A DNA stretch of 64,000 bases, taken from Narcine bancroftii. Taxonomy: Eukaryota. Positions within the stretch are counted from its first letter, which is position 1. Each line of letters starts with the position of its first letter. A program made the translations under genes and the position numbers. A model generated the notes under the pieces. That model was not told where the DNA came from. It searched no databases and saw only the letters and a program-made list of their open reading frames with translations. The stretch is taken from positions 136,028,001-136,092,000 of the forward strand of contig NC_091469.1 of NCBI RefSeq assembly GCF_036971445.1. The letters run 5' to 3'. Of the stretch, positions 4,016 to 63,535 are shown in pieces.

Positions 4016-5569
4016 ATGATTTATATCTCATGCACATCAGTTCAGGAACTAAAACCAAAATCAAAAATACATTAACAACATTACAAGTAAACTGAATGGG
4101 GATGGGGATCTAAATAAAACATCAATTTGAAAACAACTGCCTTCCTGTGCTTATAACAAAAACTTGGATTTATATAACCCTTTTTTATATGTCCCAAAAT
4201 GAATACAAAAGTTGGGTGATTTTAAAATGAGCATTGTATTATTAAAACACATTTTTCTTTGCCCAGAGCAGAGATGCTTCATTTACATTCACTGTCCTTA
4301 CAGTGCACAGTGTGGTGTAACATTGTGTCAAATCTGCTGAACTTTTATGTTATCTCTCACTGTATTGATTTGACATTGTGAGGCAGTGTTCAGTACAACA
4401 AAGTGTAGTAAAATCAAATTCAATTCCTTTGTTTTCTGTGTTGAATTGAGATGAAATAAAAATACAGTAGCAAAAAGAAGCAGGTATTTCAGGGAAATTT
4501 AAAGTCACAAATGTTCTCCTAAATGTGTTGTGAACTGTTATGTAATTCATTTCAAATCACTCAAAGGCTTGAGTAGTAAAACATCAGTTTCGATGAATTG
4601 AATCTGGCAATTTATTGCAAATTAGAAATAGGGCTGGTGTTAGCAAAAGCCTTCAGTATCATTGTCCATTGCTAATTCTATCTGACCAGTTGGTTAAATT
4701 CTTATGTGAATCTCTTCTTGTGCTTCAAGCAGTAGGTGTGAAAAACATACTAATCCTTGGGAGAATGTTAGGCGGTTTTGAATAATGAATAACCATGGCT
4801 CGTATTTTTACAATACTCAACTTGGTTATTCTACTACCAGAGAGGGTGTTACATGCTGCTCAGGTGTGCAGGATGTGTGTTCAAAGTTGAGAGTTCAGAC
4901 TGTTATTGGAGCCAAGATCCAGCAGGGTCTGGGTCTGGGATATGGAACGCCATACGTCAGGAATGTAAGTAGAAGAATGGCAGCTGGAGCAGCGACCTAG
5001 AGTTGTCCATTTTCCCAGCTAATTAGCTTCACTGGAAAATGTATTAAATTACTGTGTAACTTCAAAAGAGAGAAATCAAAGTGTGATTGCATATTAATTG
5101 GAATAACATTCAATAATCTGTAAAAATCTGTTAGTCCACCACCAAAAAAAAGTCTGGATGATCCTAGAATATCAGAGTTTCACTCCATCATCCAACTGAC
5201 TGTTCAATTCCATCATTTTCAATTTTTAAAAATTTCCTAAAGAGGAAATAATTATTTTACTCAATGAACAGATGTTTCAAATTATATTTTAATATTCAAC
5301 AGCAAAAATCATAAACAATGTCCAACCTATTCCTAATCATTTTCATTATTAATCAAATGTCTGTGAGCCATTTGTCTCATCTACACACAGGTATCGCCAG
5401 TTGCAGAGTCAATGCTGAGAGAGAGCTCAATGCCAAGAGAACGTCTATTTGCTTGACAATCCTGATACCCCCTGTGTATTCCTCTGAAAGGAATCAATGT
5501 TTTAAAACTGATATTTGGAAACAAAGGGCCCTTCACCATTCAATTAAAGTTGTGTTAACTTGAGACAGC

Positions 5570-11940: not shown

Positions 11941-12544
11941 TGACAGACACGTGCATGTACTTTATGACAAGATCCCATGCTCTAATAATCTGGGTTTTAT
12001 TGATAATTGCATTACACAGGTGAAATTAGCTGAAGTCTGACATGTACCAGTCTTACCTCATCAAAAAAAGTCAAGTGTGGATATTACTCACCTAGAGCAG
12101 GAAGGCATGGCAATGGCACCAAAAATATTAAACCAGCCTCTAATATGGAAGAAGATACTTTTTTTTAATCAAATGAAGATTGAAGTGAGATTCTAAAAGG
12201 GCTAAAAAGAATGATACAGATCCTTAAAAAAAGGTGGATCTTAAAGAAAATATGTAACCTGGTGCATGTGGGATGTAACACAGATTATCAAGAGAAGCAA
12301 AATTGGATATTGCAAAGGTCCCACATATAATCTTCCAGCCGTCTATAGATACAGATGTTATCCCATAGAACTGATAAACTGTAAATTGTAATTCATTGGT
12401 TTGAAATAAGTGAACAAGAATCTATTCATTAATGGTCGACAAATAAATTCAATCTTCATGGTTGGAATGCTTTAGAAACAATAACATGATTAACAGCCAT
12501 TTGGGAATGTTGTGATTGATAAGAGAAAATAAGCAGGGATTCTC

Positions 12545-12650
12545 TTTTCTCTTATTTGGCTTGGCTTCGTGGTCGAAGATTTATGGAGGGGTAATGTCCA
12601 CGTCAGCTGCAGGCTCGTTTGTGGCTGACAAGTCCGATGCGGGACAGGCA
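12545..12650 (-). mobile_element. RTE LINE extreme 3' end
   Basis: Near-identical to part of 34273-34516. Confidence 0.8.
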
Positions 12651-12819
12651 GGTTAGTCAAAGGTAAATTGACGTCTAACTAACCAAAGAAGAGTTGTGTA
12701 ATGATGGATTTGATTAAAAAAAGCAGTTGACATTAAAAAAGCAAAAAGTGAGGCGGAGGACAGTAAGGGTCATATAAAGACTGCATGTAATGACAGAAAA
12801 CAGAGGTTTGTACATGATA

Positions 12820-15315
12820 GAAATGATCTATTTCAATGCAAGGAGCTTAGGGCATGCATTTGCACATGGAATTATGATGTCATTGATATTAGTGAGACTT
12901 GGTTGCAGGAGGGGTAGGCCTGGTAGCTCAATGTTCTGAGGCTCCGATGTTTCAGACGTGATAGAGGGGGAGAGATGAAGGGGAAGGAATGGCATTGCTA
13001 GCCAAGGAAAATATTACAGCTGTACATAGACAGAAGAGCACTGTGGACTCATCTACAGAGGCCATACGATTGGAACTAAAGAACAGGAAAGGTATGAGCA
13101 CACTAATAGGCTTGTATTATGAACCGCCCAATAGCCAAAAGAATTGGAAGTGCAAATCTGTCGGGAGACATCAGACCAATGCAAGGAACAAAGTGGTGGT
13201 AGTAAGAGATTTTAACTTTCAGTATATTGAATGGGTCTCCCATATTGTAAAAGGACTGGATGGTTTGGAGTTTGTCAAATGTGTACAGGAATGTTTTCTA
13301 AATCATTATATAGAGGTACTAGTGAGGGAGGATGCAATACTTGATCTCCTATTAGGGAATCAGGCAGGTCAGGTGGCAGAAGTCTGTTTAGGTGAGTATT
13401 TTAGGTCCAGGAGCAATCATTTCAATAGTTTCAAGTAAATTGTGGATAAGGATAGGCCTGGTTCTAAATGGGAAAAAGACAATTTTGAGGAAATGAGAAA
13501 GGATCTCAGAAGAGCTGTTTTCTGGAAAGGATGTGTCCAGCAAGTGAAAGGCCTTCAAAGGTGAAATATTGAGGGTGCAGAGTTTGAGTTTGCATGTTCC
13601 TATCAGAATTAAAGGCAACATTAACGGGCAGAGGGAACCTTAGGGATATTGGTGATATGATTAAGTAGAAGAGAGAGGTGTATAATTGGAGCAAATCAGG
13701 TACTTGTGGACTATAGAAAATGTAAGAGAAGGAAATCAGGAAGGCAAAAAAGAAGACATCAGGGTCCTTTGGCAGATAATGTGAAAGTAAATCCAAAGAG
13801 TTTCTACAAGTATATTAAGAGTAAGAGGATAACAAGGGACAAAATTGGTCCCTTAGAGGATCGAGGGGGGGGGGGGCAACTATGTGTGGAGCCTCATGAA
13901 ATGGGGGAGATCTTAAATAGATTTTTTTTGGATCAGTATTTACTCAGGAAACTAGGCATAGTGTATATGGATGAAAGGTAAACAAATAGAAATGTCATGA
14001 AAAATATGGAGATTAAGTGAATAAAGGTAGACAAATATGGGCCAGATATGATATTGCCTTGGACCATGAGGGAGACAAGTATTGAAATTGCAGGGCCCCT
14101 GAGAGCTATATTCAAAATATCCTTAGCCATGAGAGAGGTGCTCATGTTGTACCACTGTTTAAGCAAGGTTCCAACAGTAAACTGGGTAACAATAGGCCAG
14201 TGAGCCTGACATCAGTAGTAGGTAACTTAATGGAAGGAGTTCTGAGTGATAGGATATACAGGTATTTGGACAGCCATCGGGTGATTAAGGACAGTTAGTA
14301 TGATTTTGTATGTGGTAGGTCAGGTTCAATGAATCTTGTAGAGTTATTTGAGGAGCAGAATAACCAAGAAGGCAGATGAAGGAAAGGCTGTGGATGTTGT
14401 CTACATGGACAAGGCCTTCGACAAGACACTAGGTATCCATAGAGTGACTGTAAATGGGATTCAAAATTGGCTGAGTGGGGAAAAAAAGAGTGTGGTAGGG
14501 GAGAATGAGCCAGTAAATGGATGATGGAGTTTAATGCGGACAAGTGTGATATATTGCATTTTGGAAGAGAAAATCAAGGAAGGATGTCCACATAAATGGT
14601 AGGGCACTGAGGAGTGCAGAGGAGCAAAGAGACCTGGGGATAGAGGTACATTGTTCCATGAAGCTAGTGTCGCAGGTGGACAGGGCTGTAAAGAAAACTT
14701 TTGGCATCATAGCCTTTATAAATCAAAGTATTGATTATAGGAGTTGGGATGTTATGTTGAAGTTATTTAAGATATTAGTGAGGCCAAATTTGGAATATTG
14801 TGTCCAGTTCTGGTCACCTAGCTACAGGAAGGATATCAATAAGATTGAAAAAGTGCAGGAAAGATTTACTAAGATGTTGTGGGGTCTTCAGGAGTTGAGT
14901 TACAGGAAAAGATTAAACAGATTCGGTCTTTATTCCTTGGAACAAAGAATAAGGGGAGATTTGCTGGAGGTTTCCAAAATTATGAGGGGTATAGACAGAG
15001 TAATTGTGAATAGGCTGTTTGAACTTAGATTATGAGAGATAAATACGAGAGGATGAGTTTAGTATGCAAGGGGAAATGTTTAGGGGGATCTTTTTCATTT
15101 GGAGAATGGTAGGAGTGTGGAATGAGTTGCCAACTGATGTGGTGGGTGCAGACTCTATCTTAAGCTTTAAGAATAAATTGGATAGATCCATGGATAGGAG
15201 AGATCTGGAGAGTTATGGAATGGGAGCAGGTTATCAGGACTAGCTGAACAGTGGTTGGGGCAGACTAGAAGGGCCGAATGGCCTGTCTTCTGCGCTATAG
15301 CATCCTATGATTATA
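12820..15315 (+). mobile_element. CR1/HER1 LINE, long decayed ORF2 (APE + RT)
   Basis: Motifs ISETWL, DFNF, ILDLLL, NPKSFYKYIK and LVRPNLEYCVQFWSP..IEKVQERFTK, plus the tail 'gggccgaatggcctgtcttctgcgctatag'. Many stops and frameshifts. Confidence 0.9.
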
Positions 15316-15324
15316 TGCGGATTA

Positions 15325-15535
15325 GGTCGGCATGATTAGTATAGTGGTTAGCACAACTCTTACAGCACCAACGACCTGGGCTCGAATTCGGTGCTGTATG
15401 CAAGTGTTGGTACTTCCTCTGGGCTCTCCTGTTTCCTCCCACCCTTCAACACGTATGGGGATTGTAGGTTAATGGGCGACACGGGCTCGTGGGCCGGAAG
15501 GGCCTGTTGCCATGCTGTAGATGTAAATAGATAAA
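15325..15535 (+). mobile_element. tRNA-derived SINE
   Basis: A/B-box-like head 'tagtatagtggttagc..gggctcgaattc' and tail 'gggccggaagggcctgttgccatgctgta'. Confidence 0.75.
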
Positions 15536-42896: not shown

Positions 42897-43400
42897 TGTT
42901 AGGTCTGCTTTGTTCATGAATGAGTGAGACAAACACCAGGCTGAGTCGAAATCAGGGTTCTTTGTTCTTTATTACCGGATTGTAACACTTGCGACCAACC
43001 AAGTTAGCCGGAGAATGCATTCTGCCGTTATCAGCAAAATGGTGATTTTTTATACCCTTGGATACATGCTTAGAACATCATCATATCATTACTTGTCCAA
43101 TGACTAAAACTGTTGCTATCCTTTCCCTGCTAGCTTCCTGCCTCTCAATCCATCAATGTCTCTCTTAAACTGTTGCTATCCTTTCCCTGCTAGCTTCCTG
43201 CCTCTCAATCCATCAATGTCTCTCTTATCTTGTAAGTACAAGGATGCATTCTGTTACTCCTTAGTACTGGGTGACTCCTTCTCCGGTCCCATCTCATGAT
43301 GTTTTACCTAACAGGAGTACAAGGACACCTCCCCTTCTTGTTACTGCCCTGTACCGGGTAACTCCCTACACATTCCCATCTCATGATGTTTTACCTTACA
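42897..43400 (-). mobile_element. Solo LTR (family B, ~504 bp)
   Basis: TG...CA ends, minus-strand AATAAA near 42970, a perfect internal 60-bp tandem duplication (43107-43226); interrupts a SINE. Confidence 0.7.
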
Positions 43401-43639
43401 CAGCCCAGAGACCATTTTGCCCACTTACCCCAATTTTAAGTCCAATCCCTGTACATTTTGAAAGGTGGGAGGTAATTGGAGCATCCAGAAGAAAACCCAT
43501 GCAGACACGAGGAGAACGCACAAACTCCTTATGGACAGCACGGGATTTGCACCCGGATACTGACACTAATGGAGTTGTGCTAACTCTTATGCTCCCCTTT
43601 ATTCTTTGGATTTGTTGAAGTGTTCATTCTCCATCATTA

Positions 43640-44900
43640 ATCCAAAACCTTGAAGCATACTTTTATAAATTATAGCTCTTCTTTCAACAAAATAGTTCCA
43701 AAGTTGTCTCCAAACTCCTGGATCTTAGCACTCCCTCTGCAACTGGATCCTTGACTTAAATCCGTAACCAGTAAAGATCTGCGACAACCCCTCCCCTACG
43801 AAAATCCTGAAAACTGATGGTCCACAAGCTGTACATTCAGCCTCTCACAGAACATTATATATACGCTCAACTGTGTGATCAAACACTGTTGGACTCACAT
43901 CTCTAATACCACAAGACCTGTCTGCATTATTGAAATGCAATTTAACTTTTTCTTGAACTACTGAATTAGTTAATAAATATACACAATATTTTATATTTCT
44001 CTCCATAACGAGATTTAATGTATATTGGAGTTATTTTTCTCTATAAAATTATTTTGTTTTGAATATTTTATTTATAATTTTGCAAACTCAAACCGTGTCA
44101 ACAATCCATAATAATCCATAATAATAAAAACACACTACATTTTCCAATTATATACAAGCTTCATGTTGAGTCCAATTCCCATCTCATCCATCCCTCCCCT
44201 TATCCCAATTAATGTATCCTGAGACAAAATTAAATAGACAATTATACTGAAAAGAGAGTTTGGCTGCAGCAAGTGAGAATTTCAGGCATATGTACATCAT
44301 ACTTCTGTGTCTGACAATAAACTCCCTATCATTATCAGCAAGATTGTGACTGTTTGATGGCTGGAACTCAAACAATGACAAGAAGGAGATAAAGACTGTT
44401 CAGGCTTGGAATCTAGCCAACAACCATTCCCTGAATGTCAACAAAACAAACTGGCTTGTCCACTTCAGGCAGTGGGATGGAGCACAAGTCTGTATCCATG
44501 GGGCTGAGGTGGAGATTGTAGAGTTCATGCTTAGGCATAAATATCACCAATCTGTTCTGCTCCAACCTCACAGATACTACAGCCAAGAAGGCAAAAAAAA
44601 AGGTGCACCAATGCCAATATATCCTGAGAAGCCTAAAGAAATTCTGCATGTCCCCAATATCTCTTACTGATTTTTATAGCTGCACCAGAGAAAGTGGTGC
44701 AGTTACATGACAGCTTGCAACAGGAACCAGTCTGTCCAGGACTGCAAGAATTGTGAAGTTGCAAATGCCGTTCAGGCCATTAAGCAAACTAACCTCCCTT
44801 CCAATGGTCCACATTTCCTGCTGCCTTCGAAAAATTGCCAACATTTTACAAGACCCATCCCATTCTGGTCTTGGTCTCGTCTCCTCTCTCCCTTGTTTGT
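43640..44900 (+). mobile_element. Decayed Rex1/Babar LINE fragments
   Basis: 'ctctgcaactggatccttgac' (LCNWILD) and further Rex1 ORF remnants, interrupted by AT-rich inserts. Confidence 0.6.
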
Positions 44901-44904
44901 ACAT

Positions 44905-45995
44905 AGACTACTAAAGCACAGTGCAGGTTTGTGCGACATATTTTTCTTATTAAAAAAATGTACTAATCCCTCTCTACACCGCAACCCTTTATTTTTTTAT
45001 TCCATCTATGTGGCTGTCTAAGAATCTCTTAAATGCCCCTAATTTTTCAGACTCCACCATCACCCAGGCAAGGCACCCACAACTCTCTGCATAAAAAAAA
45101 TGTACCCCTGAAGTTTCCTCTAAATTTCCCTCCTTTCACGTTGTCTGCATAATCTATCCTTAAGAATCCTCTCCAATAGTTTGCACACCACTAAGACTCA
45201 CCAGTCTATAATTCCCAGGATTCTCCCTATTACCTTACATAAACAAGGGGACTACATTTGCCTTTCTTCAATGCTCCGGCACCTCCCCTGTGACCAAAGA
45301 AGGCTCAAAGATCATAGCTACTGCCTCAGCTCTCTCTTCTCTTACTTCCCACAACAACCTGGGGTATATCGCATCTGGCCCCAGGGACTTATGAAGCTTA
45401 ATGTTTTTAAGAAGATCCAACACATCCTTAATTTCATCATTATCCAGCACACAAGCCTCATATATTCGGACCTTACCCTGATCAAGGTCCTGTTTCATTG
45501 TGAATACTGAAGCAAAGTATTCATTTAGGATCTCCCCACCATCATCCACCACCAAGCACACGTTGGCTCCTTTATCCTTTAGCTTCATTCTCATCATTTT
45601 TCTGTTCTTCAGGTAAGCATAGAATGCCTTGGAGTTCTCCTTATTCCTATCCATGGTTCCTTTTTCCTACCATCCTTTCCGTGTCCCAGTGGGACAAACC
45701 TATCCTGAACCTAACACAAGAGGTGCCTAAGCTTCTGCCACATTAAATCAGTGCTTTCACCCTTGAACATCTGTTTCCAGTTTACTCTTGATAATTCCTG
45801 CCTCACCCCATCGTAATTGCCCCTTCCCCAATTAAACACTTTCCCATTTTGTTTGCTTTTATCTTGATTCATAGTTATGCTAAAATTCAGGGAGTTGTGG
45901 TCCCTCTCACCAAAAAATCACCTCCACCGAGAGGTCCGCCACCTGTTCAGATTCATTATCCAGAATTAGATGTAGTATGGCCTCTTCTCTTCTTG
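44905..45995 (-). mobile_element. CR1 LINE fragment
   Basis: NSKAFYAYLK..LNEYFASVFT..KSLGPDAIYPRLLWE (ORF 45268-45654). Confidence 0.85.
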
Positions 45996-48395
45996 GCTGT
46001 TACCACCTTTTGTTGTTTTCCTCTTCAGTTTCTTCCTTTTCCTTTTTCCCACTGCCGAGCACGTGCTTTCTTCAGAGGAGCTGGAAATGATGAGGGCACC
46101 AAAGCCCCTGTAGAATGAAACTCTGTATATCTGATGTCATGCGCACACGTGCGCTTTTCCATAAAACTCCCCATCCCCCTACCCCAACACCTGCTTCCCT
46201 GAAATCCCTGCTGTGTTGTATAAGCGACCGCTTCTGCCATTGTTCAGTCCCCACTACAGTAGTTTAAATGCCCCTTTTTTTGTCGTTTTTTTTAGAGAGG
46301 TGCGGTAGCGGCGCTCCCATGTGCTCCTGCACCACTGCACCCCTGGTTACATGACAATAAACTCCAGAAAAGCTGGCAAGCTATATTGTCTGTGCTGCTG
46401 GCATCCAAACAACTGCAACCTTTTTTAAAACCATTGTTCAGCTTGATTCATTATAGTGACTTGACACAATTTCAGCAAACATGTTACAAATATATTTTTC
46501 TTTTGTTAACCTAAATGGATTTCAATAGGCATTTGTCAGAATTTTGTCACTGCACTTTTTTTTAGTTTGACAGACTATTGCCTTGCAGTGAGTGATGCAC
46601 TTTAAAATGTGGTGCCTTGTATCATCCTTCAGCCTGTATTCATTAGGAAACATGACCTATCAAGGTAAGAACCCAAAGACTGCTCAGGAGAAGTTAGTCA
46701 ATTAGTGTATTATTTTGTGGTTTGGTTTGAACAGACATGATTTTTTTTATTACTATGTTAATTAGAAGTTGGATTAATACTGGAAAATGCAAATGTACAG
46801 CTCAAAACATACATGCCAAAATATTGTGAATGCACGTCATTTTACTAGTTTGTTCCTCTTTATTCTTAACATTTTATTTTGCCCTAATCAAAATTAAATC
46901 TCGGAAGTTTGGAGAAAACTACATTTGATAGCACTGAAAATAGGATATGTCTAGCATATCAATGGCGATCAAACTACATCCTTTAGAGAGCCGAACTCTG
47001 CTTCAAAGCAACGAACTGGTAGAGTAACAATATAACATTGGCCTCTCAATGCACTGCAATCAAACCTTTGCAATGGCTTAATGGTCAATGAGATGGTTTC
47101 TAAGGAAGGGGAAGGGAAGGGAGGAAGAAGGAAAGGTAAGTGTCCAAATAACCTTCAAGTCTTGTTGCACTCTATTCTGACGACTTATCTGGGTAGTAAA
47201 TGCAGATCATTTGTAGCATGAATATGGACACAAGCACGTACACGCCCTCGTACAAATGCACACATAAATTTCAGCCGCAATTTGCACTTAATGTAATACA
47301 GTTTTTCAACTCTGAGCAAGTTGGGAAAGAAAAAACTGAGCTGAGATATTTTTTTCATGTCGGTTGCTAAGCAGAGTGTGATGTTTGTCTTTATGCTGCA
47401 CTATTCATGGAGTAATCCATGCCAAATTATCTGCTTGATAAATGGAGAATACAGTAAGTGCTCACGTAAGATACAGGAGCCCATCAAGTCTGGTTTGCCA
47501 TTCTATCGTTAACTGATCCATTCTTCCACTTACCACCATTTTCCTGCCTTTTCCCCTATTACCTTTGATATCCTGACTATTCAGATACCTATTAATGACT
47601 GTCTTAATGACAGCCTCCACAGATGCCTGCCTACCTGCTCCCTGTTCATAACCCTCCAATCCTCTCATGTCCATGCACTTATCCAACCTTCTCGTAAAGG
47701 ACAAAATTGACCCTGCTGCTACCACCTCTCCAAAGGTTCACCGCTCTCTGGTGAAAGAAATTCCACCACATCTCTTTTTTTTAAATTGGCACCCTTCAAT
47801 CCTGAAGTTGTGCCCTCTTGTCGTAGCCTCCCCAACCATGGGAAGTATCTTGCGAATACAGTGATACATCTGCTTTCTCCCACAATCAGGAATATATTTT
47901 CTTTATGGACTGAGCAGTTTTTTACAATTTTTTTTTAAAAAACATCAGTTTGGTCCCCCTTTGGTCTTCTCTTCAATTACGATGAGAGTAGATGAATAGA
48001 GATGGTCTCTTGCATTTCTCCATTACATCAGCTGGGACATTGCACTTCACTGCAGCCACAAGATACCTGCACCCAAATTTGTAAAAAATACAAGGCTATT
48101 CCTGAGGGAAACTGGGAGGCAAGGTTAAACCAACTAATGTTGGAAAATATCTCACCTCTGTATTTTTTTGACTCAGTTTATTTTACAGGAGGAATAAAGT
48201 TAACTGTTATTTTTCATGCTTTACTGATGAGAGGCCATGCCATCACTTCAGGCTACTAATTGCCTGTTAATGGGAGCACATGCAAGCCATTGTAATGAAT
48301 GACAACCTGTTAATTGGCTATTAGCAGGATACCAGGACACACTTCCAGCTTGGTAATGGGCAATCAATGCTATGACAGATTCTCCTTCGTGTTCA

Positions 48396-48923: not shown

Positions 48924-50034
48924 AACACTTTTGAAAGTCTGAACAAAGTTTCTAGTTTCAGATTGAAACAGATTTAAAAAAAAATATGCTTTTATTTCAA
49001 ATACATCATGAATAAGAGAAACATGGCCTTCAAACATGAAGTTCTTACTTGAGTGATCAAACTGCTTGTGAATTCTTCGGGAAAAATATAGTCTGTAAAA
49101 TATTTGAATTAGTTTATTTCTTTGCACAATGATGAGTGGACTGGTTCCCCAGCAAGAAACTCTGGATGAAAAGCACCATTCAGGGCAAACAGTGGTCAAA
49201 ATTATTGGCGCAAAAGATTTGTAATCAAAAAGTAAAAAAAGAAAAGTACTGGAAATCTGTGATGGAAATAAAAAAATGCTGCAGCTTTTTGAGAAGTTGG
49301 GCAGCATCTCTAGAATGGTTATTCTTTTTGGTCGTTTCCTTTCACCTTTCATGGGTTATCACCTGATTCTCTTCATCACACCTTGATGAAGGGCTCAAAC
49401 CCAAAACATTGATTATGTATCTTTATCTTTTGTCTATAAAGTACACTCTTTGACCTGCTGAGTTTCTCCAGCAAATATGTTTTTGCTTATATTTTAACTC
49501 TGTTTCTCTCTCCAAATACAGTCTTCTGGAGGAACTCAGTGGGTTTCTCTAGCTGGTTGTGTTTAGCTGCAGATACCAGCATCTGCAGTCTTCATATGTC
49601 TTCTATTTGTGCTGAGCTTTTCTTCCATTTATTATCATTGTATCTTCACTTAATATACCCATTGTCTGATTTCCTGTCCAGACAGTACGCTCTTCGAAGT
49701 AATACGCAGGATTTAGAAATTGACCAGAGAATTTTTTTGTCCAATAGCATTGAAATGACTGAATCAATTCACTTTGCCCCATTTCCCCATGCAAGACTAC
49801 CCATGCATGGGGAAGCCAGTGGATTCCCATAGCTATCCTGAAGTTATCTCACCACCCCCATGCTTCCTTTAAAAATACCATTCTTCTCCTCCATTTCTTC
49901 CAGATGTATATCTATTCTGACGATGATACCAAGGCCATAAGATGTATTCCTTTCACCTTAACTCTGTTTTTTCATCCATCTTAGCTATCAGCGATCACAG
50001 CTACCTATAGTTTTACATATAAAGCAAATAATTT

Positions 50035-50845
50035 TTAACTATATAACCTTATAACAATTACAGTACAGAAACAGGCCATCTCGGCCCCTCTCGTCCTCAT
50101 TGATTTAAGTGATCTCTTCTCGGTCCACCTACCTGTTCCCTGTCCATAACCTTCCAATCCCCTCACATCCATGTACTTATCCAACCTTCTCATAAATGAC
50201 AAAATTGACCCTGTCGCAACTACCTCTTCCGGAAGGTCATTCCACTCAGCCACCGATCTCTGAGTGAAGAAGTTCCCTCTCATGTTACTTCTAAACTTTT
50301 TCCCCCAACCCTTCATTTATGACCCCTCGTTCCAATCTCACCAACCCTCAAGGGGAAGAGCCTATTCTCATCTACTCTATCTATTCCCTTCATAATTTTA
50401 AATACCTCTATCAAATCCCCCCTCAACCTTCTACACTCCAATGAATAAAGGCCCAGTCTACTCAATCTTGCTTTGTATTCTAGATGTTGCCTGCAATCCA
50501 GGCAATATTTTAGTACATCTCTCTGCACCCTCTCTACCTTATTGATATCCTTCCTATAATTTGGGGACCAAAACTGCATGCAGTATTCCTAATTTTACTT
50601 CACTAATGCCTTGAACAGTCTCAACATCACCTCCCAGCTCCCTTATTCTATGCTTTGATTCATAAAGGCCAGCATACCAAAAGCCTTCTTCATCACCCTA
50701 TCTACATGAGAATCCACTTTCAAAGAATGATGAACCATTATTCCAAGATCCCTCTGTTCCTCTGTATTCCTCAATGCCCTCCCCTTCACTGCATGTCCTG
50801 TTTTGATTATTCTTCCCAAAATGAAACTCCATTTTCACACTTACC
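50035..50845 (-). mobile_element. CR1 LINE 3' fragment
   Basis: QFWSPNYRKDINKVERVQR..LRGDLIEVFKIMKG..FFTQR. Confidence 0.9.
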
Positions 50846-51284
50846 TTCCAGAGTAGCTGTTTACACAGAACTTCCTGTGTTCAGATATTGCCGCATGTTT
50901 AGACAAAGTACCATAGGTGCAGTATTTATGTAGACAGGACGTGAGTCAATGTTGCCCGTGATGTATGATGTACATGCATTACACAGCATCACAGCGTCGA
51001 CATTGTCAGTGATGTCACTCATTTGCGTCCAAAAGAGTAACATGGCTCTAGATCCACAGATCCTTTTAACGCCAATATCATTCCAATGATTCAACACAGT
51101 GGTTGACTGATGCTGGTAAGTAGATGTTACCTTGGTTCACATTTAAATGTGGCGAGCTGAACACGTCATTGCATGTCATTATGTACATCGTATTATTGAG
51201 CCCATTGTTGCGGACTGCCTGCAGTTCAGTTTAGACTGAAATTGTCCAGGGCTGCCACAGGAAAATTTTGGAACAGGAATTAGT

Positions 51285-55686: not shown

Positions 55687-56368
55687 TATTCTTGTTGAGG
55701 CTTAAATGTTGATTCCCCCTAGAGAAATGTGCAAAGCTGGCCAAGGGTGCATTGAGGTCTACGGCAGATGCCATCTAATAGACTCTACACATAGCCCTGG
55801 AATACCTGGACAGCAAAGATGGAGACATCGACTACAGTTTGGCATTCAACATCACCATCCCCTCAAAATTGATCAGTAAGTTGACCTGTGACTCAACATC
55901 GCATCGCATCTTGGATTTTCAGAACACAATCAGTGAGGATTGGTAAGAACATTTCCTCCACAATCTCCATCAGTACCAGAGCACCATAGGGCTGTGTTCT
56001 TAGCTCCCTGCTCTACTCGCTTCACACCTATGATGTGAGGCTCAGTTCGACAACAACACCATCTACAAATTCGCTGATTATACAATGGTAGTGGGTTGTT
56101 TAAAAGGGGAGATGAGTCAGCACACAGAAAGGAGATGGAAAATTTGCCTGAATGGTGCACCAACAACAACCTCACACTCAATATCACCAAATCCAAGGAG
56201 CCGATTGTTGACTTCAGGAAGGGAAAACTAGGGGCGTGGCAAGATGGCGTAGGGAACAGACGTGCCTTCCAGACCTCTCCTGACTCTGATTTATTGTTTT
56301 GTCTTTAAGTGCCCGTTAAAGTTCTTTTAAAAGTTTATAAATAATAAGAGGTGTTGGATTAGTGCCTA

Positions 56369-57767
56369 ATGGTTTATATGCAAAAAAAAAGGTAAAAGAA
56401 AACATCAACAGACTGTTAAAAAACTATATTTTCCGAAATTGTCTGAGCCTACTTGTTTACAAGAAGCCAGGATTCAGCGTAGAATGGATCCAGAGGAAGA
56501 CGTACAGAGTTCGGCATTGAAACTCCGTTTTAAGCCGGTGAGGCTCTTTGAAGGTCGCATTCAACAGCTTTCAGACCAAAGAGCTGGACGGGTGCCAGTA
56601 TTTCACACAACGGCCACTGTGAGTGCTGTTACTCAGACTTTGACAGTTGAATCAGCTGGGGCACCACCAGCTGGAGTGTTAAAGAGCTGTCATTCGACTG
56701 CTACAGTGGTGGCGCTGCAAAATGCATCTTCAATTACAACAGTTTTTCTAGACATCGATTCAGTGAAGATGATTAAAGAGATTTGGCTTAAAGATAACTC
56801 TGATCTTCAGTCTCCTGGCATTGCTGGGGGGACTTTGAGAGGGATTTTTATATGAAGTCAAACTGCTAGAAAAGATACTAAATTAAGAGAAGGGACAGAA
56901 GATCCCGTGGTCTCTAAGGAACAGCAAGACCCCATTATGCCTGAATCTACTTCTGTTGAAATGTCTGTTAAGGATCCTGAAGATAAGATATATTCAGTAT
57001 CGAGTCACTTAGCTAATTTTATGAACCTGTTTATTTCCAAGATTAATGCGATGGCAGAGGTCATTAATGGAGCTTTTAAGCTTGAAACCATTGAAAGATT
57101 TGAAATGTGTGATCAAGGTTTAGTCGATGCACAGGATCAACTGCAAGATGAAAATAGAATAATTGAAACATTGCAGATCCAAAATAAAAATTTAGCAAAA
57201 AAGGTTGATTATTTGGAGAATCAATCTAGACAGAACAACGTGAAAATTGTTGGTTTGCCAGAAGGCATAGAAGGACCAGATCCAAGAAAATTTTTTACTG
57301 AATGGATTCCATGAGTGTTAGGACAGGATAAATTCCCTGAAGGTTTAATACTGGAACGTGCTTATAGGGTTTTAAGAAGAAAATCTTTTTCAGGACAGAA
57401 TCCAAGATGGATCCATTGTTTAAACTATTGTGACAGAGAGACAATTTTATGTATGGCTATTAGAAATGCCCAGCAAAATAGATCTCCTTTGATGGTTCAG
57501 AATAATCCTGTTTTCTTCTATCAAGATTTGAGTCAAGAAATTATGTTTCAACGACGCAAATTTAATTCTGTGAAAGAACGGTTGTGGAAAAAAAGACATA
57601 AGGGAACATTCAGGTATTCTGCAGTACTGAAGATTTTTTAGGATGGAAATTAGCCAAAGTTCTTTGACAATCCTAAAGAGGTTATGGACTTTGCTTAGTC
57701 TCTACCAATCATTCAGTTTCAGGAACGATGTAGTTCTTCAAGGTCTCCAAAGAAAGTAGAGATGTAA
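56369..57767 (+). pseudogene. L1 ORF1p (coiled coil-RRM-CTD), disabled by in-frame stops
   Basis: ORFs 56439, 56907 and 57315 share one frame. Motifs LENQSRQNNVKIVGLPEGIEG, LERAYR, FFYQDLS and YSAVLKI. Confidence 0.9.
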
Positions 57768-57981
57768 GGTGGGATCCAGATTTTTAAAAGAAATGGAAGC
57801 AATGGTGACCGAAGTGGTAACGTTGATTTAAAAAAATAAATTTTTTATCTTTTTTTTGAGAAATGTTTAAATAGTTTAAATAATGATGATATTTTATTGT
57901 AATTGAGAGGGAATTATGAGGTTTTTTTTCTCTTTCTTTTCTCTTTTTGAGTTTTTTTTCTCTTTTTTCTTTCTTTTTTAA

Positions 57982-58191
57982 GAGGATGATGTCACAGAAG
58001 ATAATAAGTCAAAAATTGAGGATGTTGAATTAGATGAAGAGGAAGATGAGTGGAAAGGTGATAAGAAGAAAAAGAAGAAAATTAAGAACAAATACATTGA
58101 GGGAGAAGAGTTCAATAAAATTAAGTTAATTTCGATAGAGAATTTTGAAGATGTTATAAATGAAGAATATGGAGAATTTTATAAGAGTTTG
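57982..58191 (+). pseudogene. HSP90AA1: Captured HSP90-alpha coding fragment (charged linker to start of middle domain)
   Basis: 70 stop-free codons [70 protein letters not shown]. They align without gaps to HSP90 [62 protein letters not shown] favours alpha over beta (QEEY). Confidence 0.9.
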
Positions 58192-59964
58192 AACTTTTTT
58201 TTCTTTTTTTATATAAGGGGAGGGGAAGGGAATAAAAAGTTTATCTGATTGTTTTTCTAAGGGATGTTTTTGTTCTCTCGATAAATTATAAAGGAAACTT
58301 GGTATTAATGGAAATTCTGTATTTATGTATTATTAATTATGATTTTTTTGTATAACAGATATGTGGTTGATATATGATTTTAATATTTGAACTTAGTTTT
58401 AAAGTGGATTTCATTTGTTAAATACATGTATTATGTTTGATTTAAATATATGTTTAAGGGTATTATTTTAGTATTGATTTTTTTTGTTAGTAAATTAGAT
58501 GATTAATGTTGTGTTATAATTATTGGGGGGGTTAATTTGTGTAGTTTAATGATGTAGTATTCTAATTTTTATTATCTTATTTTTTATTATTTCTTTAAAT
58601 GTAATTTTTATTTTATTCATGTCATAAAATTTTAAATAAAGTTTAAAAAAAAAAGGAAGGGAAAACTAGAGGTGTATGATCCATTAGTCATTGAGGGATC
58701 AGAGGGGAGAGTTCTTGGAAATCCACTATCTATCAAGGATCTTTCCTAGACCCCACACACAAATTGTATCATGAAGAAAGCATGTCAGTGACTTGACTTC
58801 CTTAGAAGTTTGTGGAAGAATGGTATGACATTGGAAACCCTGGCAAATTTCTACAGAGGTGTGGTGGAAAGTTTGCTGTCTGGCTGCATAATGATCTGGC
58901 ATGGAGACACCAATACCCCTGAGTTTAAAACTCTGCAAAAGGTAGTGGACACAGCGCATGGCATCACAGATAAAACTCTCCCATCATAGAAAACATCTAC
59001 AGGGAACACTGCCATCAGAGAGCAACAGGAATCATCAAGGATTCACATCACCCAGCACATGCTCTGTTCTCACTGCTACCATCAGGAAAAAGGTATAAGT
59101 TCCATAATACGCGCACCAACAGATTCAGGTACGTCTGTTATCCCTCCACCATCAGACATCAAACTCAATAAGACACTCACTTTAGGAGTTACTTTTGCAC
59201 TTTATTGATTTTCTCTGTTTTCCACAGTCAATTTGTTTACAAGTGTATGTTGAGTGCAGGTTTTTGCACTACCAATTAGTGGTAATTCTGCCTTGCCACT
59301 AGGGAAAAGAGTCTCAGGATTGTATGTGATGTCATTTATTTATTCTGTCAATAAATCTGAAAATTTGGAATACACCCAATGTCTTTTGTTGTTATTCTCT
59401 GGGATATGGATAAAGATCTAACAGCTCATTAATGTCTGAAGAAGAAGATGCGCCTTGCTTTGATCCTCAAAGCTCATGAGAATGCTTCCTCCACACCACA
59501 GAGTTCATTCTGCCCACAAACTTCACAGATCAGATGGATGAAAGTTTCACGTGCCAGGGATAAGTTGCAAAGTCTTGTATCACCTATGTATTAGGATGTA
59601 AATATGGAGGAGCCTTGATCAGCCTACTTCCTTCCTGGGAAGGAATAGTAAAACACAAAATGCTCAAGGAACTCAGCAGGTCAGCAGTGTCCATAGGAGA
59701 AAAAGAGATTTTACCAATATTTCACTCCTGATGCCTTCGTCAAGGTATGAGCAAGAATCAGGTAGACACTGAATACAAGGTGGGCTGAATGGAGAGTTAA
59801 ACTTGACATCTCAACATAAATTCTGCCTGCTCAATAAAAATTAGAGCAATTTTCCATGACATTAGGGGAAGTAGTTCCCTTGTTTGCAGTTGTAATAATT
59901 TCAAAAAGAGAGTACATTTATCTCATATAGACCTTTATGATAAAGGTTTTCAGATTATATTCTG

Positions 59965-60805: not shown

Positions 60806-62314
60806 ATGTATCTTTTAATCAATGTTTTAATCAGAAAATAAAATGTCAAAAGTTTCTGAAAATAATTTTGTGAATCTTCAGGTCAATGCCTTGTTTCATC
60901 ATCTGCAATCTCTGCATCACTATAAAATTATCTGAACGCTCTAATGGGCAGAGTTTTGTCCCTCATCAAAACACACCCAGAGCAGTGCTTTTGTTGACTC
61001 AACACTGTGCACACTTTTAACTTAGATGCCTTATATCGTAAGCGGTTTCTGTTACGTTGATGCTCTGTTAGTGAAATTCAGGCACATGTAATAATGAGCC
61101 AGTGGATGGGGCTGAGGTACATATTTTTCTATTTCAGGATGAGAACACTAACTTAAAGCTGATGCTTTCCCTGGTAGATTTCTGTTGTACATGGAATAAA
61201 AGGATAACTGATGGCTATTTGCTGTCATTTGCTAGAAATTCAAGTGAGTTTGAAATGGCAGTAGAATTTCTACATTATTTTTTAAAAAAATGTGGACTAA
61301 GTATCTCTGACAAGGCGTGTCCTTTCCTATCCATGTCCCCAATTTATTGTCCGCCCTTAATTTCCCCTGGAATGAATGGTTCGCTTGAACATTTCCATGC
61401 AGTTGAGCATCAATCTCATTGCTCTGGGCCTGGATCACCGATAAACAAGAACTGGTATGCACACCAAACTTCTTTATGTAAGACCTTCATGACTGAGATG
61501 GGTTTTACAACAGTCCAATAGCTTTGTGACCCCCCATTACTGATACTAACCTTGATTTCAAATTTATCTGACAAATTAAAATCCTGTTCATCGAGGCGCA
61601 GCTCCAGATCAATTGGCACCTGCATTGCCCAGGCATGGAAGCTACAGGCAAACTGCTGGAAGATAGAATTAATATACTTTTTATCAAATTTCAGATCTTA
61701 TTCGCAGCATGGTAGAAGACGATCGTGGTCATTTGCAGCGGTGCCGCACAATTACATCCACATTCAGGAGGGTGGGAGGAAACTGGATTACCTGTGAAAA
61801 ACCCCATACAAACTTGGGGAGACTCCTTACAGACAGCGCCAGATTCAAACCAGGTTTGCTGGTGCTGCGCTAGTGTTGGGCTAACCATTACATTAACGGA
61901 GCCTCCCAAAGTTGGGTGCCAACTTGTGAGCAAGGATATGGTGGCCTGAATGTCCTGATTCCATGTTGCATGACTTAATGACTTTATACAACCTGTTCAG
62001 TGACTAAACCATCATCATAATGAACCACTGGAAAAATCTCCGATGCACATTATGTAAGATTCTAAGTTTTTTTTCTCCAAACAAGATTGGAAATATAAAT
62101 GCCTGTCTTCATGGGCTAAACATCTTCATGAATCAACCCAACATCACTATTCTGCCTGTGGTCTTTTCCTTCCCAGCCGTGACATTCTAAATTTATATGT
62201 AAGACTGTGCAAAGCTATCACAAGCCCCAAGCATTCCAATTAGATGACACATGACCAGACAACAAATAGCAGGTTGTGCATAAATTAAATAGTTTTGCCA
62301 AAGTTGTTTAAGAA

Positions 62315-63535
62315 AATAGAACATTACAGCACAGTACAGGTCCTTCTGCCCTTGATGTAGAGCCGACCACTATAAACCTAGTCATCAATCTAAATACTCC
62401 CTACCTCACACTCATAGCCCTTTATTTTTCTTGTATCCATGCGCCTGTCCAGGAGTCTATAAAATATCCCTATTGTACCAGCCTCCACCATCACACCAGG
62501 CAACATATTCCAACCACCACTATTTTCTGTGTAAAAAAATGTACTCCTGGCCTCTCTTTGAAATGTTTCTCCCCTCACCTTGTGCAGATGTCCTCTGGTG
62601 CTTGCTACTCTCGCCCCAGAAAAAAAGTGCTGACTCTCCATCCTTTCTCTGCCTCTCCTAATCTTGTAGACCTCTATGAAGTCATCTTTCATCCTCCTTT
62701 GGTCCAGAGAAGCCCTAGCTCTGCTAACCTTGCCTCATAAGGCAACATCCTTGTAAATCTCTACTGCACCCTTTCCATAGTTTCCACATCCTTTCTGTAA
62801 TTAGGTGATAAGAACTAAACACATATTCCAAGTGTGTTCTAACCAGAGTTTTATAGTGCTGCAACATTATCTCATGATTCTTGAACTCATTTCCCCAACT
62901 AATGAAGGCCAGCATATCATCACCTTCTTAACTACCCTATCGACCTATGCAACAATCTTGAATTTGGCCCCAAAATCCCTCTTTTCTTCCACACTATTAA
63001 GAATCCTGCCATTTTTCAAAAATGTATCACTTCACACTTCTCCAGATTGAACTCCATCCACCACTTCTCTGCACAACTCTGCATGCTGTCCATATTCTGC
63101 TGTAACTTATGACAACCTTTTACATTATTCATGGAACCTCCAACATTGTGTCATCTGCAAATTTACTGACTCATCCTTCCACTTCCGTCCAGGTCATTTA
63201 TAAAAATCACAAAGAGCAGGAATCCCAGGACAGATCCCTGTGGAAATCCACTAGTCACTGACCTCCTGGCAGAATACACTTAATTTACTACTACCCTCTG
63301 CTTCCTACAAGCAAGCCAATTCTGAATTCACACAGTTAGGGTTCCATGGATCCCAAACATCATAACATTCTGACTGAGTCTACCACAGTGGACCTTGTCA
63401 AATGCTTTACTAAAATACATGTACACCATACCTACTACTTTACCTTCATCAATTTATTTTGTCACTTAAAAAAACTCCATTAGGATCACATGGCATGACT
63501 TGACCCTGACAAAGCCATGCTGACTATCCCAGAGA
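62315..63535 (-). mobile_element. CR1 LINE RT to 3' fragment
   Basis: Reverse of FSKAFDKV, SKFADDT and YKTLVRTHLEY motifs, plus a CR1 tail. Confidence 0.9.

What the first reader, a model, noticed from the sequence alone, without database searches (positions are those of the whole stretch)
56853..58650. Strand-specific C-to-T change across the element
Seen: the HSP90 piece has only 7 C in 210 nt. Its changes at conserved residues are C-to-T type on the sense strand (P>S TCA, S>L TTA, L>F TTC, T>I three times, P>L TTA, P>F TTT), and two-fold sites mostly end in T. The ORF1 stops are TGA (56853, 57312) and TAG (57639, 57651, 57696), each one C-to-T step from CGA/CAG. Motifs ERAHR>ERAYR and YPA>YSA fit the same pattern, and the 3' tail is nearly C-free. 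Many sites are non-CpG. Known: APOBEC3 attack on minus-strand cDNA gives sense G-to-A, the opposite polarity. Inference: C-to-U editing of the element RNA or deamination of the sense DNA strand by an AID/APOBEC-family enzyme, or a bias accumulated over retrotransposition cycles. Ancestral codons are inferred from protein conservation.
Basis: partly seen in the sequence, partly recalled or inferred. Interest (0 to 1): 0.75.

Follow-up and report, generated by a model that had tools for sequence, protein, structure and literature searches.

The report
LINE-1 lineage erases its own cytosines
A jumping-gene family carries a stolen scrap of a host heat-shock gene in which 20 of 23 C letters have turned to T on one strand only, step by step as the family multiplied, likely through damage or miscopying during its RNA copying cycle and not through one attack on this copy.

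Summary
The bias is real, but it belongs to the lineage, not to this copy. Window 56232-58653 is an ORF1-only (HAL1-type) deletion derivative of an autonomous L1, carrying 213 nt of a host HSP90AA1-type exon. Against that exon the family has T at 20 of 23 C, but A at only 4 of 51 G; the exon has no CpG. An older sister copy has 13 of 23, so the change was stepwise. A released ORF2 piece shows the same (14/20 vs 5/39), and the parent L1 has T:C about 10 at third codon positions, while other L1 lineages here have 1.4-3.5. Changes private to single copies are symmetric; this copy has 10 C>T and 11 G>A, and two of the five stops cited are CpG decay. No sequence context, no hyper-edited copy: an AID/APOBEC burst is not supported. 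Best reading: weak strand-specific C-to-T pressure in the replication cycle, most likely at the RNA stage; RT miscopying and selection remain open. A sense-strand A>G cluster suggests RNA edits are inherited. One deep branch shows no bias. The scan reached the same C-to-T conclusion earlier on another copy (e1-9145315).

The parts
56216..56231 (+). 5' target-site duplication (16 bp)
   Evidence: identical 16-mer at 58654-58669
56232..58653 (+). whole ORF1-only L1 derivative (HAL1-type); family copies are about 2.8 kb, this copy has two internal deletions (about 240 bp near 57900, about 120 bp near 58490)
56232..56483 (+). 5' UTR, homologous to that of the autonomous L1
56330..56620 (+). cluster of inherited sense-strand A>G changes (ADAR-like); 8 of them in this copy; no C>T excess here
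56484..57767 (+). L1 ORF1, broken in this copy by five stops; open in the older subfamily
   Evidence: identity to ORF1 of the autonomous L1 by alignment; no Pfam ORF1 hit
56853..56855 (+). TGA from CGA, CpG decay, 3 of 30 copies
57312..57314 (+). TGA from CGA, CpG decay, 2 of 30 copies
57363..57653 (+). non-CpG C>T fixed or nearly fixed in the young subfamily: 57363 (H>Y), 57408, 57618 (P>S), 57639 and 57651 (TAG)
57696..57698 (+). TAG, non-CpG, 4 of 30 copies
57768..57979 (+). remains of the L1 inter-ORF region, T-rich
57980..58192 (+). captured piece of a host HSP90AA1-type exon (G000:C5:41593676-41593888), ungapped, 82.6% identical, 19 of 23 C read T
58210..58400 (+). piece of L1 ORF2 (about 4943-5134 of the autonomous element), released from coding; C>T 14 of 20, G>A 5 of 39
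58401..58653 (+). end of L1 ORF2, 3' UTR, AATAAA (58635-58640) and poly(A) (58645-58654)
58654..58669 (+). 3' target-site duplication

Best explanation
This L1 lineage loses C to T on its sense strand in every sequence context, stepwise in the source copies that keep retrotransposing, likely because cytosines in the single-stranded element RNA are deaminated (or read as U) and reverse transcription fixes the change. Shown: strand-specific, non-CpG, context-free C>T in sequence newly brought into the element or newly freed from coding; its stepwise build-up; its presence in shared and not in private changes; its different strength among L1 lineages of one genome. Inferred: that the cause is mutation and not selection; that it happens at the RNA stage; that each cycle adds under about 0.15% per C, so that on the order of a thousand cycles are needed. 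No enzyme is identified. The window copy is a dead product that then decayed symmetrically.
For: Host exon vs family: C>T 20/23, G>A 4/51, T>C 1/35, no CpG; 12 of the 20 are at codon positions 1-2 and 11 of these 12 are C in the paralogous HSP90 gene too, which fixes the direction. Steps: 12/23 on the stem (other sites 10/190), 5 of the 10 left on the branch to the lineage that kept moving (other sites 7/199, p 5e-5; 2 further sites ambiguous), 1 of 10 on the branch to the lone old copy, 1 more between the two recent subfamilies. ORF2 piece 14/20 vs 5/39, 12/20 vs 3/32 at codon positions 1-2. Parent ORF2 third positions T537:C53. Middle-to-young subfamily, non-CpG 9/245 vs 1/374, p 0.0014, including two stops. 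Tree of 54 copies: internal branches 26 C>T vs 8 G>A on 279 C and 527 G. Private changes symmetric: 61/294 vs 120/556. Six autonomous copies: shared pyrimidine transitions 55/2561 vs purine 24/2839 (p 9e-5), private 111 vs 109. For the RNA stage: A>G at 21 of 106 A in 56330-56620 vs T>C 1/69 there and A>G 5/398 downstream, with ADAR-like neighbours; the same stretch lacks the C>T excess (3/64 vs 31/200 downstream, p 0.03).
Against: The branch between the old copy and the middle subfamily shows no bias over 5' UTR, ORF1 and spacer (12/206 vs 17/342, p 0.70), although the HSP90 piece lost half its C on the same branch; ORF1 third-position C changed at only 2 of 15 there. The contrast between the two HSP90 branches (5/10 vs 1/10) is not significant alone (p 0.14). 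Terminal branches still show a 1.5-fold per-site excess (228 vs 282), partly unresolved shared changes. No long hairpin was found to explain the A>G cluster, and the 5' stretch may lack C>T because it is constrained. Lineage-specific strength fits an RT property or selection as well. Ten HSP90 retro-fragments show no excess (4/304 vs 10/326): expected at this rate, but no support either. No C-to-U was seen in RNA; no raw reads were available.
Confidence: 0.42

Rival explanations
1. The same cycle-linked pressure, but made by this lineage's ORF2p: A inserted opposite template C in first-strand synthesis, or T opposite G in second-strand synthesis; the ORF1-only family inherits it because it borrows that enzyme.
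For: Strength differs among L1 lineages in one host: third-position T:C about 10, 3.5 in a second family (6 loci), about 1.4 in an A-rich piece; RTE-like pieces are C-rich (759 C vs 351 T at four-fold sites). No context and no over-dispersion. G-T wobble in second-strand synthesis would give sense C>T and A>G together (recalled chemistry).
Against: A>G is confined to one 290-nt stretch and not spread with C>T; a roughly 20-fold excess of one change over all others (2.0 vs 0.1 hits per site) is large for a polymerase. No error spectrum for such an RT could be read (paper not held).
Confidence: 0.22
2. Selection among source elements for C-poor, U-rich RNA; mutation is unbiased and only C>T variants are recruited.
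For: Bias lies in shared and not in private changes, as selection also predicts. Ruggiero and Boissinot argue for selection on LINE composition (PMC7140322, section 13 read).
Against: It would have to favour almost every single C>T, in any context, in a captured exon, in a dead ORF2 piece and at hundreds of synonymous sites, and to let through two nonsense changes and changes in conserved ORF1 motifs, while leaving G alone.
Confidence: 0.18
3. Deamination of the exposed non-template (sense) DNA strand at highly transcribed source loci in the germline, spontaneous or by AID.
For: Right polarity; would hit only active source copies, so shared and not private changes.
Against: No WRC signal: 7 of 12 early-changed and 3 of 11 late or kept C are in WRC, and 3 WRC sites were among the slowest. 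Uracil in DNA is repaired (general knowledge). Does not explain the A>G cluster.
Confidence: 0.13
4. One or a few APOBEC-type hyper-editing bursts on the element.
For: Four non-CpG C>T (57408, 57618, 57639, 57651) appear together in all young copies; 6 of 9 fixed changes are in TC (p 0.07).
Against: Intermediates at 13, 19 and 20 of 23; per-copy counts not over-dispersed in 30 + 23 copies; -1 context flat over 28 recurrent sites; this copy is symmetric; only APOBEC2 found clearly; APOBEC1 and APOBEC3 arose later in vertebrates (PMC5889660, passages).
Confidence: 0.05

Closest known systems
HAL1 (half-L1) non-autonomous elements (Bao and Jurka 2010, not held; known through passages of PMC5753468)
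   Same: L1 derivative that keeps ORF1 and both ends, lacks a working ORF2, spreads with poly(A) and target-site duplications
   Different: non-mammalian host, independent origin from a local L1; carries a host exon piece; the youngest subfamily has ORF1 truncated by two fixed stops
Strand-biased base composition of vertebrate LINEs (PMC5381506, PMC7140322, PMC9099904; passages and two sections read)
   Same: lineage-specific, stable, strand-specific composition; T-rich spacer and 3' UTR as described for fish L1; private mutations do not explain it
   Different: those studies scored singletons only and leaned to selection; here a captured exon and a freed ORF2 piece give the direction of change in the source lineage, and it is one transition, C>T, not a general A or AT bias
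APOBEC3A editing of L1 cDNA and G-to-A editing of LINEs (PMC4003774, PMC3880073; passages)
   Same: cytosine deamination tied to retrotransposition, strand-specific
   Different: opposite polarity (39 G-to-A vs 1 C-to-T on the coding strand in PMC4003774), clustered and context-dependent; not seen here
Directional C-to-U pressure on plus-strand RNA of coronaviruses (PMC7831814; abstract start and passages)
   Same: slow directional loss of C on the sense RNA strand over many replication cycles
   Different: there a U-C context and host APOBECs are proposed; here there is no context, the genome is a retrotransposon and no candidate enzyme is in hand

Membership tests
HAL1 (half-L1) | encodes L1 ORF1 but no ORF2 | tested here: met
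   5' 2 kb aligns at about 81% to an autonomous L1 whose ORF2 has Exo_endo_phos and RVT_1; only two ORF2 scraps remain
HAL1 (half-L1) | moves as a family by L1-type insertion (poly(A), target-site duplication, common ends) | tested here: met
   39 other full-length-type copies among 40 scored of 3383 candidates; ends and duplications seen (read by eye, not counted)
HAL1 (half-L1) | ORF1 intact and needed for mobility | tested here: inconclusive
   CAG at both sites in 23 of 24 middle copies, TAG TAG in 29 of 29 young copies: the young subfamily spread with a truncated ORF1
APOBEC3-type editing of L1 cDNA | sense-strand G-to-A | tested here: not met
   G>A 4/51 vs C>T 20/23
AID/APOBEC hyper-editing in general | -1/-2 context preference (TC, CC or WRC) | tested here: not met
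   recurrent C>T by -1 base: T 11/78, A 6/59, G 7/49, C 4/46; WRC 7/12 vs 3/11; weak TC hint 6/9, p 0.07
AID/APOBEC hyper-editing in general | clustered changes in single copies (over-dispersion) | tested here: not met
   variance below mean in 30 young and 23 middle copies; the copies were picked for similarity to the queries, so rare heavily edited copies could be missed
AID/APOBEC hyper-editing in general | an active deaminase in the genome and germline | tested here: inconclusive
   one clear hit, APOBEC2; no SNAD1 hit; three weak pieces under cut-off; AID, expected in jawed vertebrates, was not found, so the search misses split genes
RNA C-to-U editing | U in RNA where the template locus has C | not testable with these tools
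   only assembled contigs of four runs of uncertain kind were offered
CpG methylation decay | changes at CpG, equal C>T and G>A | tested here: not met
   0 CpG in the host piece; met only for stops 56853 and 57312 and for private changes
ADAR A-to-I editing (the 5' A>G cluster) | clustered sense A>G with 5' A/U and 3' non-A neighbours | tested here: met
   21/106 vs 1/69; 5' W 18/67 vs S 3/39, p 0.02; 3' A 4/46 vs 17/60, p 0.01; neighbour rule recalled
ADAR A-to-I editing (the 5' A>G cluster) | double-stranded RNA substrate | tested here: inconclusive
   no long intramolecular duplex, folding z about +2 to -1 over the stretch; an antisense partner was not tested

The most novel reading that the evidence does not exclude
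In this L1 lineage RNA-level base changes are heritable and set the element's composition: an unidentified, context-free C-to-U process on single-stranded element RNA and ADAR A-to-I editing on its paired 5' end are both written into the genome by reverse transcription, giving the first direct record that the strand bias of a LINE comes from mutation in the RNA phase, in a vertebrate group without APOBEC1 or APOBEC3.
Probability: 0.3. Interest if true: 0.85.

Novelty: new variant of a known kind. Interest (0 to 1): 0.62.

Why it matters
Why LINEs keep lineage-specific, strand-specific base compositions is stated as unexplained in a 2022 review (PMC9099904, passages), and the one direct test used private mutations only (PMC7140322). 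A captured host exon with a known ancestor, a freed ORF2 piece and a ladder of subfamilies let one read the direction and order of change in the source lineage, and L1 lineages with weak and strong bias sit in the same genome as controls. That turns mutation versus selection, and RNA versus RT, into experiments with one enzyme and one reporter. The fraction of C lost would also work as a counter of retrotransposition cycles.

Tried and rejected
One-shot editing of this copy: rejected. C-poor donor: rejected, the genome's own gene has 23 C in the piece. CpG decay as the cause: rejected for the HSP90 piece, accepted for two stops. Host-wide editing of all retroelement RNA: not supported, since other L1 lineages and RTE-like elements differ. 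Sequence context (-1, +1, WRC): no robust signal. Folding of the host exon did not predict which C went first. Rfam scan of one autonomous and one ORF1-only copy: 1 match at E 0.49, below threshold. RNA evidence: no RNA holder listed with raw reads; contigs of X1-X4 show the family, the parent-like L1 and the host exon but cannot show editing. Pfam did not name ORF1 or the flanking element (only a weak PF09004 hit, E 0.011), so the labels Rex1-like, RTE-like and CR1-like rest on recalled motifs. A second L1 family's shared-versus-private spectrum was too mixed with divergent copies and flanks to use. Literature: ten searches gave no report of sense-strand C>T pressure in an L1 or of inherited A>G clusters in LINE copies; two searches returned 0 papers; subscription journals are not covered, and two wanted papers were not held. 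No supplements were read; those of PMC7140322 (codon tables) may hold similar third-position values for fish L1.

Full report
What the stretch is. Window 56232-58653 has a 16-bp target-site duplication, AATAAA and poly(A), and sits inside an older repeat. A search of the own 3.3-Gb genome gave 3383 candidates; all 40 scored were this copy or 95-97% identical copies of about 2.8 kb. Searching with a divergent copy gave a ladder: an autonomous 6.1-kb L1 (about 81% identical; ORF2 with Exo_endo_phos and RVT_1), one old ORF1-only copy (L073 = L044, 87.6%), a middle subfamily and the young subfamily of the window. The element is the 5' 2 kb of that L1, then 213 nt of a host exon, then L1 4943-5134 and 5771-6146. 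That is a HAL1-type element (PMC5753468, passages). The host is probably a cartilaginous fish; earlier scan notes say electric ray; I did not test this.

The observation. The host gene at G000:C5 (HSP90AA1-type; name from recalled motifs, Pfam HSP90) aligns without gaps at 82.6%. Of 23 C, 19 read T in the window and 20 in the majority of 29 other copies; G>A 5 and 4 of 51; T>C 1 of 35; the piece has no CpG. Twelve of the 20 are at codon positions 1-2, and 11 of these are C in the paralog too, so the direction is firm. Of the five stops, 56853 and 57312 are CpG decay, 57696 is in 4 of 30 copies, and 57639 and 57651 are in 30 of 30 but CAG in 23 of 24 middle copies, the old copy and 5 of 5 autonomous copies (the exception clusters with the young group).

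Lineage, not copy. The window copy differs from the family by 10 C>T and 11 G>A. Private non-CpG changes in 30 copies are 61 on 294 C and 120 on 556 G, which caps any insertion-time excess at about 0.15% per C. Shared changes are biased: 37/512 vs 29/780 in the two subfamilies (p 0.006); 9/245 vs 1/374 fixed from middle to young; 26 vs 8 on internal branches of a 54-copy tree, after dropping 324 of 2808 columns as low-complexity or gapped (L018 was left out of this alignment because of a large insertion). In the HSP90 piece the loss is stepwise: 12 of 23 on the stem, 5 of 10 (plus 2 ambiguous) towards the lineage that kept moving, 1 of 10 towards the old copy, 1 more later. The freed ORF2 piece repeats it: 14/20 vs 5/39, 12/20 vs 3/32 at codon positions 1-2. 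The parent ORF2 has 537 T and 53 C at third positions, flat along its length and across -1 bases, and its shared variants are mostly pyrimidine transitions (55/2561 vs 24/2839; private 111 vs 109).

Controls. A second L1 family has third-position T:C 3.5 with the same A:G of 2.2 (6 long ORF2 loci of 11 fetched); an A-rich L1 piece has 41 T, 30 C; RTE-like frames are C-rich and CR1-like frames mildly C-poor (labels recalled, copies redundant). The flanks of the insertion have 23-24% C. Ten host-gene retro-fragments from 9 loci show 4/304 C>T and 10/326 G>A. So the strong bias follows one L1 lineage and its dependants.

Against my reading. The branch from the old copy to the middle subfamily is symmetric over 5' UTR, ORF1 and spacer (12/206 vs 17/342); most changes there are in the N-terminal part of ORF1, and ORF1 was then intact, which may mask the bias, but I did not show that. 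Tips keep a 1.5-fold excess. Copies were chosen by similarity, 40 at a time. Several tests rest on 10-25 sites.

Mechanism. APOBEC3A editing of L1 gives the opposite polarity (PMC4003774, passages); G-to-A editing was reported for lizard and not zebrafish LINEs (PMC3880073, passages). Here there is no context, no over-dispersion, and only APOBEC2 was clearly found, by a search that also missed AID. A burst is therefore unlikely. What remains is a weak pressure per cycle. Three steps give this polarity: C-to-U in the RNA, miscopying by ORF2p, and deamination of the non-template DNA strand at source loci. I favour the first because 56330-56620 carries a sense-strand A>G cluster (21 of 106 A in two or more copies; 16 of them A in both outgroups; T>C 1 of 69; 5 of 398 downstream; ADAR-like neighbours), which suggests RNA edits are inherited in this family, and because that stretch lacks the C>T excess, as a paired region would. 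No duplex was found, so this is inference. Together the three mutational steps have about 0.77 of my belief, selection 0.18, a burst 0.05.

What is known. Strand-biased LINE composition is known and its cause is called unexplained (PMC9099904, passages); T-rich spacers and 3' UTRs are described for fish L1 (PMC5381506, passages); the mutation test in PMC7140322 removed shared changes (passages and sections 8 and 13), which is where the bias lies here. Ten searches found no report of sense C>T pressure in an L1 (see Tried and rejected).

Verdict. Real, lineage-level, non-CpG, strand-specific C>T; new variant of a known kind; interest 0.62.

Noticed in passing
window 56330-56620 and the same stretch in L002-L097: Inherited sense-strand A>G cluster, 8 in all young copies, 11-14 in some clades, with ADAR-like neighbours; no hairpin found, an antisense partner is possible.
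   Followed up: partly
window 57639-57653; L001-L030: The most recent, abundant subfamily spread with ORF1 cut by two fixed stops, so it may need neither of its own proteins in full.
   Followed up: partly
L077 element 1680-1825 (deleted in the window copy near 57900): A conserved, C-richer block in the inter-ORF region folds into several hairpins (-57 kcal/mol for 160 nt, no shuffle control); no Rfam match. Its reverse strand holds a hammerhead-core-like motif (recalled), untested.
   Followed up: partly
L103-L111: Nine loci hold 110-200-nt pieces of one 3' exon of the host HSP90 gene, most ending within a few bases of the same place, without poly(A): tailless retro-fragments.
   Followed up: partly
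L158 (G000:C15:52561000-52569400): A second ORF1-only L1 family (ORF1 58-68% identical in protein) with two short ORF2 scraps and a C-poor tail; a copy of the window's family is inserted into it.
   Followed up: partly
window 12500-15500, 43000-46500, 49500-51000, 62000-63500: CR1-like repeats with strong G-over-C skew on their sense strand (about 30% G, 10% C), a milder bias of the same sign.
   Followed up: partly
L172 (G000:C15:189592429-189592554): Weak match under cut-off that resembles an APOBEC4-type exon (recalled motif).
   Followed up: no
window 56484-56850: ORF1 has a long N-terminal part that changes fast between subfamilies, mostly at codon positions 1-2.
   Followed up: no
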